Shown one piece after another: positions 21,866 through 24,800 of a stretch of DNA of 64,000 nucleotides (positions are counted from its first letter, which is position 1; every line of letters starts with the position of its first letter). Origin of the DNA: Escherichia coli (GTDB lineage Bacteria > Pseudomonadota > Gammaproteobacteria > Enterobacterales > Enterobacteriaceae); the NCBI RefSeq assembly GCF_050320075.1, contig NZ_CP190018.1. The stretch is one strand, 5' to 3'. The position numbers were made by a program.

Positions 21866-24800
21866 GGTTATGCGCTGATGCCTGATGCGGCGCGGGCGCG
21901 TCTTATCATGCCTGGAAGTCTGCGCCCGAATCGTAGGCCGCCTCCGCTATATTAACTGGCATTGGCAAATTACTCGTCACTACCTTTATTCATGTTTTTT
22001 TGGTCTTCATCCGGATAATGTTTTTTTAGATATTCCAGGACGTTTTTATTGACCTTGTGTTGCGTATACACCCACCCTTTCCAGTAATCAGGCTGGTCCA
22101 GGTAAACTTCTGGCGGAATGGTGAAATCAGAAAGCGTTAACCATTCGGCTAACAGATCGGGGTTTCGTTTCTGGATTAACTGCAACAGCATAATCAGTGA
22201 CATAGCTGAGGCAGGAGCCGTACTATCACCACTCAAATATTTCCACACTGTTGACCGGTTCGAACGAAAAAGGATCGGTAGCAATGCCCGGTCCAGATTC
22301 ATTTCATTAAAAATCTTCTCAAATTCATTCATTTAAATTTTCCTGCCTGGCGTAAACCTCTTAAAAATTGAGATTTATCAAAGAAACGCATTTTAGCACA
22401 CATCAGGAACCGCTTCACGTTTAGTCCAGAAACAGAATTTATTTCGCTTATCAAAACAAGTCTTTACTCTTTTTTACATTGAAAGAGCACAAAATGATTT
22501 TCGATTTTATTTATATAAGAAACATTTTTTGTTTCTTATTGGTGGTGTTTACGCTTACACCAGACAAAAATGCGCTTTACATCACACAAATGGCGGCGTA
22601 GATTTCGATCAAATTGCAACGCAGTTTATTTCTTAAAACAATATTATTTGTTTCTTATAGAAACATTAATGCGACTTATTTTGAACAAGAGAAAATGAAT
22701 GAAAACTGTAAACGTAGCTTTACTGGCACTCATAATTTCAGCAACATCCAGCCCTGTTGTTTTAGCTGGTGATACCATTGAAGCGGCGGCAACAGAGCTT
22801 TCAGCCATTAACTCTGGCATGTCGCAATCGGAGATTGAGCAGAAGATTACCCGCTTTTTAGAACGCACAGACAACAGCCCCGCTGCGTATACCTATTTGA
22901 CTGAACATCACTACATCCCTTCTGAAACACCTGATACCACTCAGACTCCCACTGTCCAGACAGATCCTGACGCAGGACAAAAAACCGTTGCCGCTACAGG
23001 TGATGTACAGACAACCGCCCGTTATCAGAGCATGATCAACGCCCGACAGTCTGCGGTAACTGATGCCCAGCAAACGCAAATTACAGAGCAACAGGCGCAG
23101 ATCGTAGCCACACAAAAAACGCTCGCCGCGACTGGAGATACGCAAAATACTGCGCATTATCAGGAGATGATTAATGCCAGACTGGCGGCTCAAAATGAGG
23201 CTAATCAGCGCACTACCACGGAACAAGGGCAGAAAATGAATGCACTGACAACCGATGTGGCAGCACAACAGCAAAAAGAAAGGGCTCAATACGATAAACA
23301 AATGCAAAGTCTGGCGCAGAAGTCTGTCCAGGCACATGAGCAAATTGAAAGTCTGAGACAAGATTCCGCACAAACGCAGCAACAGTTAACCAACACGCAA
23401 AAACGGGTCGCAGATAACAGCCAACAAATTAACACGCTCAATAACCATTTCGATTCTCTGAAAAACGAAGTTGAGGACAATCGTAAAGAAGCCAATGCGG
23501 GAACTGCATCAGCCATCGCTATCGCCTCACAACCACAGGTGAAAACCGGTGACTTGATGATGGTGTCAGCGGGAGCGGGAACCTTCAACGGTGAATCTGC
23601 GGTGTCTGTAGGAACATCTTTTAATGCCGGAACGCATACGGTACTTAAAGCAGGTATTTCTGCGGATACACAATCTGATTTCGGTGCGGGTGTCGGCGTG
23701 GGATATTCGTTCTAATTTTAACAGCAATTTCTTATTCGCAATTTTCCGTACATTATTTAAGGTTAACAATGATGAATAGCTCCATTAAATCGTTTTCCCT
23801 GCTGGCGGTTATATTACTGGCTGGCTGTAGTTCACCCACTTCCCGCATCGCAGATTGCCAGGCGCAGGGCGTCAGCCATGACACCTGTTATCTCGCAGAA
23901 CAACAGCGTCAGACGGCTATTTTAAGTGCATCCGAGGCGCAGGCATTTAAAAATGCAGAAGCCGCACAACATGCCCAGGCGGCAAAGAAAGCCATTTATA
24001 AAGGATTTGGAATGACCTTTAGAATGAGCAGTAAAAACTTTGCTTATCTCAATGATTCATTATGTGCAATTGATGAAGACAATAAAGATGCCACTGTTTA
24101 TCAGTCAGGTCTGTATAACGTCATTGTTTATCATCACACAGGAAAAGTCGCCTTAATGAAGGAAGGTCAATTTGTGGGTTATTTAAAATGAAGGAGCAAA
24201 GGAAAATACCCCTGACGCATATTATGATTATCGGTGCGTTTATTTTTGCCTTCTTGCAAGTAGTATTATTAGCCTCCCTGGTTCACGCTGTGAATGTTAA
24301 CAACGAAATCCAGGAAGGCTTATTTCAGTCGGGGCGCATTATGGTAGAAAGTTTGCAGCATATTCTTTCGGTGCAAACGGGGATTAACTGATTTTCACCC
24401 CGCCCGATGATGACAGCAGCCGGAGAGATTTTCGATAATCGGGCAGTCGGCGCTGTCATCGCCAGGGCAGGCATTCGCCAGCGCCAACAGCTGGTTGCGC
24501 ATGGATTGCAGCTCCTCAATGTGTCGTTCGATCTCCGCCACTTTCTCCAGGGTGCGCCGTTTTACATCGGCGCTGTGACGCTGCGGGTCGTTAAACAGAT
24601 TCACCAGTTCGCCGCTCTCTTCCAGGTTAAAGCCCACCTGGCGCGCCTGGCGCAGTAAGGTCAGTTCGTTGAGATGCTGCTGCGTGTAGGTTCGATAACC
24701 ATTTTCGCTACGCATCGGCGGCGTCACCAGCCCCTTCTCTTCATAGAAGCGGATTGCTTTGCTGGTCAGGCCGGTAATTTTTGCTACATCGCTAATGTTC

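What the first reader, a model, noticed from the sequence alone, without database searches (positions are those of the whole stretch)
22500..22670. Two GTTTCT/AGAAAC palindromes in the divergent promoter region of the YadA-like gene
AAGAAACA-TTTTTT-GTTTCTT (22517-22537) and GTTTCT-tat-AGAAAC (22650-22664) share the same half-site and lie about 130 bp apart in an extremely AT-rich region between two divergent ORFs. This is the arrangement expected for operator sites of a dimeric regulator or for a looped repression complex.
Basis: seen in the sequence. Interest (0 to 1): 0.4.

Follow-up and report, generated by a model that had tools for sequence, protein, structure and literature searches.

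The report
Operator array for an adhesin-linked regulator
The two palindromes are real and are part of a conserved, evenly spaced row of GAAAC binding sites between a YadA-type adhesin gene and a small uncharacterised helix-turn-helix protein, which most likely binds them to control both genes.

Summary
The window is E. coli. The region is O-island 29 of EHEC, inserted between ybbJ and cueR. Both palindromes exist: ATAAGAAAC-N7-GTTTCTTAT at 22515-22539 and GTTTCT-TAT-AGAAAC at 22650-22664.

They are not chance. AGAAAC occurs 6 times in the 366-bp intergenic region against 0.30 expected.

The same gene pair occurs in other Enterobacterales at different chromosomal sites: a 110-120-aa protein divergent from a YadA-anchor adhesin. 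In 10 independent intergenic regions GAAAC is the most enriched 5-mer (62 observed, 10.5 expected), at conserved positions.

The sites form a lattice of [GTTTC-N5-GAAAC]-N7 with a 22-bp period. Palindrome 2 is one perfect 15-bp operator. Palindrome 1 is the junction of two adjacent operators.

The main rival is OmpR. The sites resemble ompC and ompF boxes, but they have dyad rather than direct-repeat symmetry.

The adhesin itself was published as a "transcription factor, GmrA".

The parts
21970..22332 (-). [not shown]
22373..22387 (+). Operator O_A: ATTTA-TCAAA-GAAAC. It overlaps the predicted transcription start of the small gene.
   Evidence: AAGAAAC is invariant in 7 of 7 aligned loci. It sits at the conserved position -316 from the adhesin ATG.
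22390..22398 (-). Predicted extended -10 promoter element of the small gene (TGcTAAAAT on the minus strand).
   Evidence: Read from the sequence. The TGnTAnnAT pattern is kept in the aligned loci. No experimental start site is available, so this is inferred.
22419..22433 (+). Operator O_B: GTTTA-GTCCA-GAAAC.
   Evidence: CA(G/A)AAAC is conserved across genera. It sits at position -270 in 8 of 12 loci.
22509..22523 (+). Operator O_C1: ATTTA-TATAA-GAAAC.
   Evidence: It is the best hit of the OmpR-style PWM frame.
22515..22539 (.). It is the junction of O_C1 and O_C2.
   Evidence: The arms are invariant and the spacer variable in 5 E. coli variants. GAAAC-N7-GTTTC recurs 6 times in 10 loci against 0.35 expected.
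22531..22545 (+). Operator O_C2: GTTTC-TTATT-GGTGG. The right half is degenerate in E. coli but intact in other genera, for example GTTTC-CAATA-GAAAC.
22576..22604 (+). Predicted sigma-70 promoter of the adhesin operon: -35 TTTACA (22576-22581), a 17-bp spacer, then -10 TAGATT (22599-22604). The inferred start site is ~22611.
   Evidence: Promoter scan. The block GCTTTACATCACA...GGCGTAnATT is the most conserved non-GAAAC block across genera. No experimental start site is available.
22606..22620 (+). Operator O_D: CGATC-AAATT-GCAAC. It is degenerate in E. coli but GAAAC in other genera. It abuts the -10 and covers the inferred start site.
   Evidence: position -83.
22628..22642 (+). Operator O_D': ATTTC-TTAAA-ACAAT. 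It is half-degenerate in E. coli; other genera have ATTTC-TTATA-GAAAC.
   Evidence: position -61. It lies 22 bp from both O_D and O_E.
22650..22664 (.). It lies at about +40 to +54 of the inferred transcript, 35 bp upstream of the adhesin ATG.
   Evidence: The right half GAAAC is invariant in all aligned loci, and the left half is E. coli-specific. TTTC-N5-GAAA occurs 10 times against 0.36 expected.
22699..23715 (+). [not shown]
   Evidence: Pfam YadA_anchor E=7e-12 at residues 279-338. RefSeq annotation. Primer identity with the GmrA paper.
23769..24391 (+). [not shown]

Best explanation

O_A sits on the small gene's own start site, which implies autorepression. O_D, O_D' and O_E cover the start site and early transcribed region of the adhesin operon, which implies repression or a roadblock. 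O_C1 and O_C2 lie upstream of the adhesin promoter and could add cooperativity or looping.

For: (1) AGAAAC occurs 6 times against 0.30 expected in the intergenic region.

(2) In 10 independent intergenic regions from other genera or variants, GAAAC is the top 5-mer in an unbiased scan: 62 observed against 10.5 expected, with at least 3 copies in 10 of 10 loci. The sites sit at conserved distances from the adhesin ATG: -316, -270, -180, -168, -83, -61 and -39.

(3) The lattice is sharp. TTTC-N5-GAAA occurs 10 times against 0.36 expected, with a peak only at N5. GAAA-N9-TTTC occurs 6 times against 0.35, with a peak only at N9. Same-strand spacings cluster at 22, 23, 44 and 46 bp.

(4) The logo around 62 sites gives G-T-T-T-C at -10 to -6, which is dyad symmetry.

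(5) The small protein is always divergently paired with a YadA_anchor gene. The spacer is about 360 bp in close relatives and 230-360 bp in distant ones, at different chromosomal sites and down to 32% identity.

(7) Covariation: the P0027 subgroup has recognition helix PRNTIFNY instead of NRSTVHKY and has no GAAAC. It has three conserved A(A/G)GAACA repeats at exactly 22-bp spacing.

(8) Published RNA-seq shows z0638, z0639 and z0640 shut off together on host cells.
Against: No binding experiment exists. Promoters and start sites are only predicted.

The protein fails every curated family threshold. The Pfam best E-value is 0.007, below the cut-off, and NCBIfam gives nothing. PDB sequence hits are non-significant.

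The sites also resemble OmpR boxes. Covariation rests on essentially two groups.

In L020 the sites are single AGAAACC copies without a clear dyad partner. The dimer operator could equally be the N7 form.

Confidence: 0.58

Rival explanations
1. The GAAAC sites are OmpR boxes. Phospho-OmpR, conserved in all these hosts, binds tandem sites and represses the adhesin operon and the small gene at high osmolarity or acid pH.
For: ompC C1 and C2 contain TGAAACATCT 21 bp apart, and ompF F2 is TTTTC-TTTTT-GAAAC. These were recalled from the literature and verified in the K-12 sequence.

A PWM of six OmpR sites scores O_C1 at 11.7 bits, O_E at 9.1 and O_A at 8.0, within the leave-one-out range of true sites. 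It gives 4 hits of 8 bits or more against 0.47 expected.

Published gmrA mRNA falls with added NaCl or KCl and away from pH 7.
Against: OmpR binds head-to-tail direct repeats (xxxAC-N5-GxxAC). Here the partner half is the reverse complement, GTTTC. A at the critical position occurs in 4 of 62 sites. TAC-N5-GAAAC occurs 0 times, xAC-N5-GAAAC once, and GAAAC-N5-GAAAC 0 times, against 14 for TTC-N5-GAAAC.

The period is 22-23 bp, not 20-21. GAAAC is kept strictly rather than drifting within GxxAC. The half-site changes in the P0027 subgroup. OmpR does not explain the obligatory linkage to the HTH gene.
Confidence: 0.15
2. [not shown]
For: The region is 31% G+C in a ~50% G+C genome. Expression is thermoregulated with an optimum at 37 C, as for many H-NS-silenced islands. 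Two TCGAT-containing AT tracts resemble H-NS nucleation motifs; this comparison is from memory and was not tested.
Against: H-NS has no requirement for a strict GAAAC core, dyad symmetry or a 22-bp lattice. The G and C of the motif are the most conserved bases. The cross-genus footprint is site-specific rather than compositional.
Confidence: 0.12
3. The elements downstream of the start site (D, D', E) act in the mRNA 5' UTR, as a hairpin or as protein- or sRNA-binding repeats that control translation or stability.
Against: The leader as a whole folds no better than shuffles (z = -0.83). The left arm of palindrome 2 is not conserved outside E. coli and shows no compensatory changes. Sites A, B and C lie outside the adhesin transcript and share the same motif. 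Rfam finds nothing here.
Confidence: 0.05
4. The sites are a chance or neutral repeat in AT-rich DNA with no function.
For: AT-rich DNA is rich in short A/T palindromes. No experiment exists.
Against: 0 of 20,000 simulations reach the observed count. The sites show positional conservation across genera at 69% mean identity. The spacing peaks are sharp.
Confidence: 0.03

Closest known systems
Lambdoid phage OR/OL operators with cI/Cro (also 434 and P22)
   Same: An XRE-type HTH dimer binds dyad operators whose half-sites are about one helical turn apart. Several operators are separated by short AT-rich spacers, about 22-24 bp centre to centre, between divergent promoters. One of those promoters drives the regulator's own gene. 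Cooperativity and possible long-range looping also apply.
   Different: This is not a phage. The regulated gene is an outer-membrane adhesin operon. There are about seven sites spread over 290 bp, including the early transcribed region. The half-site GAAAC is different, and the protein has a different C-terminal part. There is no evidence for a second, Cro-like regulator.
XRE-type antitoxins and controller proteins that autoregulate through paired palindromes (MqsA, HigA2, C.Esp1396I/C.Kpn2I, Aca2)
   Same: These are the best structural matches. They are small proteins of about 100-130 aa with an HTH and a dimerisation region. They bind two or more palindromes in their own promoter. C.Kpn2I acts as a roadblock downstream of the start site (PMC6237814, title and abstract).
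   Different: There is no toxin, restriction enzyme or anti-CRISPR partner gene; the neighbour is always a YadA-anchor adhesin. Sequence similarity is below all family thresholds.
OmpR boxes of ompC (C1-C3) and ompF (F1-F3)
   Same: They share the GAAAC core, the T-rich left half (F2 is TTTTC-N5-GAAAC), and three sites in tandem with ~21-bp periodicity. The target is osmoregulated.
   Different: The symmetry here is dyad rather than direct-repeat. The period is 22-23 bp. Sites lie downstream of the start site as well as upstream. The motif changes with the linked HTH protein.
Trp1 (XRE-family HTH) control of the trimeric autotransporter badA in Bartonella henselae (PMC5387305)
   Same: A small XRE-family DNA-binding protein is implicated in expression of a trimeric autotransporter adhesin.
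   Different: The Trp genes are not adjacent to badA and are paired with Brt RNAs. Overexpression activates badA. No homology or shared motif with this system was established here.

Membership tests
XRE-family HTH regulator with cognate operators | The adjacent protein adopts the five-helix XRE/Cro-C1 HTH fold | tested here: met
   [not shown]
XRE-family HTH regulator with cognate operators | The sequence passes a curated HTH family model (Pfam HTH_3/HTH_19/MqsA etc., or NCBIfam) | tested here: not met
   There are only sub-threshold MqsA_antitoxin hits: best E=0.007 at 13.5 bits against a cut-off of 30. NCBIfam gives none.
XRE-family HTH regulator with cognate operators | Dyad-symmetric operators with half-sites about 10 bp apart | tested here: met
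   TTTC-N5-GAAA occurs 10 times against 0.36 expected, with a unique peak at N5. The logo gives GTTTC at -10 to -6.
XRE-family HTH regulator with cognate operators | Operators overlap the regulator's own promoter (autoregulation) | tested here: inconclusive
   O_A lies next to a conserved TGnTAAAAT extended -10. No start site has been mapped.
XRE-family HTH regulator with cognate operators | The DNA motif covaries with the recognition helix among homologues | tested here: inconclusive
   GAAAC goes with NRSTVHKY. GAACA goes with PRNTIFNY on the same 22-bp lattice. This is effectively two groups only.
XRE-family HTH regulator with cognate operators | Direct, sequence-specific binding of the protein to the sites | not testable with these tools
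   This needs EMSA, footprinting or ChIP.
OmpR-regulated promoter | Similarity to known OmpR 20-bp sites | tested here: met
   The PWM of six verified sites gives 4 hits of 8 bits or more against 0.47 expected.
OmpR-regulated promoter | Head-to-tail direct-repeat half-sites (xxxAC-N5-GxxAC) | tested here: not met
   xAC-N5-GAAAC occurs once and TAC-N5-GAAAC never, against 14 for TTC-N5-GAAAC. There are no 10-bp direct repeats.
OmpR-regulated promoter | OmpR-dependent expression or binding | not testable with these tools
   There is only indirect evidence: gmrA mRNA falls with osmolarity (PMC5826968).
Type II toxin-antitoxin module (MqsRA / HigBA type) | The HTH antitoxin is co-transcribed with a toxin gene | tested here: not met
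   The small gene is monocistronic and divergent from an adhesin in every locus. No toxin-like ORF is present.
Intrinsic terminator / structured RNA | A GC-rich stem plus a U-run, or a conserved, covarying structure | tested here: not met
   No terminator-like site lies in 22333-22698. There is no Rfam hit. The arms are not compensated across genera. The leader folds with z=-0.83.
Dam/phase-variation switch (pap, agn43 type) | Conserved GATC sites within regulator binding sites | tested here: not met
   [not shown]

The most novel reading that the evidence does not exclude

Probability: 0.2. Interest if true: 0.6.

Novelty: new member of a known kind. Interest (0 to 1): 0.45.

Why it matters
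It gives a concrete, testable regulatory model for O-island 29. The island is present in about a quarter of complete E. coli genomes (1413 of 5426), including O157:H7, ExPEC and APEC lineages. The model specifies defined operators, a candidate regulator, and predicted promoters.

It identifies an uncharacterised HTH family with no Pfam or NCBIfam model. That family is genetically locked to trimeric autotransporter adhesins across Enterobacterales.

It also flags a likely mis-assignment in the literature. The protein named transcriptional activator GmrA carries an N-terminal hydrophobic leader with the look of a signal peptide and a YadA membrane anchor. The neighbouring true HTH protein was set aside.

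Tried and rejected
- **Terminator or hairpin reading.** The hairpins are only the trivial consequence of the palindromes. No terminator-like site or Rfam family lies in the region, and the leader does not fold better than shuffles.
- **Dam/GATC phase switch.** The single GATC is not conserved.
- **Known boxes recalled from memory** (RcsAB, EvgA, NarL, Cra/PurR, PhoP, CpxR, Fis, TyrR, LysR T-N11-A). None fits both the half-site and the spacing. These comparisons were by eye only.
- **Plasmid or phage origin of the small protein.** The only plasmid-collection matches are two records of chromosome length, 4.9 Mb.
- **Genome-contig scan.** Only 4 species representatives carry it, so it added little.
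- **First AF2 run with 12 close sequences.** It was poor (pLDDT 60). Its fold search was non-significant though it pointed the same way. This was superseded by the 22-sequence run.
- **PDB sequence searches.** These were non-significant.
- **Metagenome scan with a 13-sequence distant alignment.** It was rerun with the P0027/P0034 pair.
- **Other GAAAC clusters in the window.** The cluster at 10200-10650 (allA-allS) and the GTTTCTTAT at 1141 lie mostly in coding sequence with unrelated context. They were judged to be chance.
- **L021 (P0024 group).** It shows GCAGAAA(G/C) repeats and Fur-box-like palindromes instead. This was left unresolved.

Full report
**Where we are.** The window is E. coli chromosome. 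The feature lies in an island inserted between ybbJ and cueR. The island carries four genes. A 120-aa hypothetical gene runs on the minus strand (21970-22332). A 338-aa YadA-family autotransporter runs on the plus strand (22699-23715; Pfam YadA_anchor E=7e-12). A 140-aa lipoprotein and a 67-aa ORF follow. In O157:H7 Sakai these are ECs0549, ECs0548 and ECs0546. In EDL933 they form O-island 29 (z0640, z0639, z0638). The intergenic region is present in 1413 of 5426 complete E. coli genomes.

**The observation.** Both palindromes are real. The first is ATAAGAAAC-ATTTTTT-GTTTCTTAT at 22515-22539. The second is GTTTCT-TAT-AGAAAC at 22650-22664. Their centres are 130 bp apart, in DNA of 31% G+C.

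AGAAAC occurs 6 times in 366 bp, against 0.30 expected from a first-order Markov model of this same AT-rich region (0 of 20,000 simulations reach 6). ATAAGAAACA occurs 3 times against about 0 expected. Over the whole window the hexamer is at background. The stated refutation, background frequency in AT-rich DNA, therefore fails.

**Conservation within E. coli.** I aligned five variants down to 85% identity. The arms of palindrome 1 are invariant, while its spacer changes (ATTTTTT, CATTTTT, GGATTAA). The right arm of palindrome 2 is invariant. Its left arm is GTTGCT in two variants.

**Conservation beyond E. coli.** The small protein has few relatives: 21 clusters at the 90% level and 23 representatives in a full profile search. 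Every relative whose context could be read sits divergently next to a YadA_anchor gene. The spacer is about 360 bp in close relatives and 230-360 bp in distant ones.

The hosts include Pseudocitrobacter, Symbiopectobacterium, Escherichia species and unnamed metagenome bins. The chromosomal sites differ (near nrdAB, near a chemoreceptor, near ribE). The pairing holds down to 32% identity. So the small gene, the spacer and the adhesin travel as one module.

**Footprint.** A seven-locus alignment at 69% mean identity shows conserved islands at the GAAAC sites and at one further block, GCTTTACATCACA...GGCGTAnATT. That block holds the only plus-strand promoter-like site in the region: TTTACA-17-TAGATT at 22576-22604.

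In an unbiased 5-mer scan of ten non-E. coli intergenic regions, GAAAC ranks first. It occurs 62 times against 10.5 expected, with at least 3 copies in all ten. The sites keep fixed distances from the adhesin ATG: about -316, -270, -180, -168, -83, -61 and -39.

**Architecture.** The logo around 62 sites shows G-T-T-T-C at positions -10 to -6, the reverse complement of the core.
- TTTC-N5-GAAA occurs 10 times against 0.36 expected, and no other spacing peaks.
- GAAA-N9-TTTC, which equals GAAAC-N7-GTTTC, occurs 6 times against 0.35 expected, again as a single peak.
- Same-strand GAAAC spacings are 22 (8 times), 23 (2), 44 (4) and 46 (6).

These three facts describe one lattice: [GTTTC-N5-GAAAC]-N7-[GTTTC-N5-GAAAC], with a 22-bp period, or two helical turns. 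On this reading palindrome 2 is one perfect 15-bp operator (O_E). Palindrome 1 is the junction of two neighbouring operators, O_C1 (22509-22523) and O_C2 (22531-22545).

In E. coli the array reads:

| Operator | Coordinates | State |
|---|---|---|
| O_A | 22373-22387 | intact |
| O_B | 22419-22433 | intact |
| O_C1 | 22509-22523 | intact |
| O_C2 | 22531-22545 | right half degenerate |
| O_D | 22606-22620 | degenerate |
| O_D' | 22628-22642 | half degenerate |
| O_E | 22650-22664 | perfect dyad |

I cannot exclude that the dimer site is the N7 dyad and N5 the junction. The N5 form has the one-turn half-site spacing usual for XRE dimers. That last point rests on established knowledge of the lambda and 434 operators, not on a test here.

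**The candidate binder.** With 12 close sequences AlphaFold gave a poor model (pLDDT 60). With 22 sequences including distant relatives it gave pLDDT 92.3 and pTM 0.81.
- Foldseek against the PDB returns the HigA2 antitoxin HTH domain (prob 0.99, rmsd 2.4 A over 63 residues), including its operator-DNA complex. Aca2, P2 C, C-proteins and MqsA follow.
- hhalign places residues 5-63 on the MqsA HTH (residues 75-129) with P=0.003.
- Pfam MqsA_antitoxin hits 7 of 12 members, all below threshold.

The protein therefore has an XRE-type HTH fold but belongs to no curated family.

**Covariation.** A subgroup has recognition helix PRNTIFNY instead of NRSTVHKY (P0027; loci L022 and L027-L033). It is still paired with a YadA_anchor gene. 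It has no GAAAC at all. Instead it carries three conserved A(A/G)GAACA repeats at exactly 22-bp spacing, plus AGGAACA nearer the adhesin gene. The lattice is the same and the half-site is altered. This is what a module-encoded binder predicts and a shared host factor does not. It is effectively one extra group, so I treat it as supportive only.

**Mechanism proposed.** O_A abuts a conserved extended -10 (TGcTAAAAT, minus strand, 22390-22398) and would cover the small gene's start site, giving autorepression. O_D abuts the -10 of the adhesin promoter. O_D' and O_E lie in the first ~55 nt of the inferred transcript, giving repression or a roadblock. O_C1 and O_C2 lie about 70-100 bp upstream and could stabilise the downstream set, possibly by looping around the promoter. 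All positions relative to start sites are inferred.

**Literature.** Yang et al. 2018 (PMC5826968) studied this island.
- Their Table S2 primers show that 'gmrA' (z0639) is the 338-aa protein starting at 22699. The deletion primer equals window 22660-22701, and the cloning primer begins ATGAAAACTGTAAACGTAGCTTTA. Their z0640 is the small protein.
- They report gmrA mRNA maximal at 37 C, pH 7, low osmolarity and exponential phase, with induction and then shut-off on host cells.
- In their RNA-seq, z0638, z0639 and z0640 fall together at 3 h on host cells.
- Deleting z0640 did not change motility. A clone starting at window 22380, with the native control region but without z0640, complemented the island deletion.
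- That paper reports no operator or promoter mapping of this region, and my paper searches found none.

**Main rival, OmpR.** The sites look like OmpR boxes. I verified the recalled ompC C1-C3 and ompF F1-F3 sequences in K-12. A PWM from them scores O_C1 at 11.7 bits, O_E at 9.1 and O_A at 8.0, with 4 hits of 8 bits or more against 0.47 expected. The target is osmoregulated.

Four points count against OmpR.
- OmpR sites are head-to-tail direct repeats with AC in both halves. Here the partner is the inverted GTTTC. A at the key position occurs in 4 of 62 sites. xAC-N5-GAAAC occurs once against 14 for TTC-N5-GAAAC, and no 10-bp direct repeats exist.
- The period is 22-23 bp rather than 20-21.
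- The half-site changes in the P0027 subgroup.
- OmpR does not explain the gene linkage.

I keep OmpR at about 0.15.

**Other rivals.** H-NS or another host factor stands at about 0.12, an RNA-level role for the leader sites at about 0.05, and chance at about 0.03. The arguments are in the rivals section.

**Novelty and verdict.** The operator interpretation is supported in general and corrected in detail. In kind, this is an ordinary bacterial device: an XRE-type regulator with a multi-operator divergent control region, most like lambdoid OR or the MqsA, HigA2 and C-protein systems. In membership it appears new. The protein family matches no Pfam or NCBIfam model, and my paper searches found no description of the GAAAC lattice or of a regulator-adhesin module of this kind. 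Binding and the sign of regulation remain untested.

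Noticed in passing
[not shown]
   Followed up: partly
window 22727 onward; L002, L003, L004: In E. coli variants with 85-95% identity, similarity to the window stops about 10 codons into the adhesin gene. RefSeq annotates the YadA gene as starting 370-740 bp further downstream. This indicates alternative passenger-domain alleles or disrupted 5' ends of the adhesin behind the same control region.
   Followed up: no
window 21835-21912: An Rfam naRNA4 (REP-derived) match scores 71.9 bits on the plus strand. It also matches on the minus strand (45.2 bits), below the gathering score of 59.5. It lies between ybbJ and the small gene, at the edge of the island.
   Followed up: no
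window 24799-48911: Beyond cueR lies a type I secretion locus. It comprises HlyD (24799-25974), an ABC permease/ATPase (25971-28133) and a 6924-aa BapA-related giant adhesin 'SiiEA' (28137-48911), all on the minus strand. cueR is thus sandwiched between two accessory adhesin modules.
   Followed up: no
window 23769-24391 and loci L006, L015, L017, L021, L022: A ~140-aa lipoprotein, usually followed by a ~65-aa ORF, follows the YadA-anchor gene in most related modules. It has weak NCBIfam hits to Lpp/OprI alanine-zipper lipoprotein (E=0.03) and XAC1346 secretion chaperone (E=0.0017). It may be an adhesin-biogenesis helper.
   Followed up: no
L021 (P0024 group), intergenic region 3270-3557: This distant module lacks the GAAAC lattice. 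It carries GCAGAAA(G/C) repeats and two Fur-box-like palindromes, TGATAATTATCA and TTATCATGATAA. This suggests different, possibly iron-dependent, control of that adhesin.
   Followed up: no
window 22528-22539 and 22647-22658: The 12-mer TTTGTTTCTTAT is an exact direct repeat 119 bp apart. It is explained here as two copies of the operator left half with its flank. In E. coli it makes the two GTTTC halves more alike than the dyad requires.
   Followed up: partly
P0028 (2772 aa): The profile of the small protein matches 11 stretches, through profile positions 56-105, in one 2772-aa protein. This suggests the C-terminal helical part occurs as a repeat in a giant protein.
   Followed up: no
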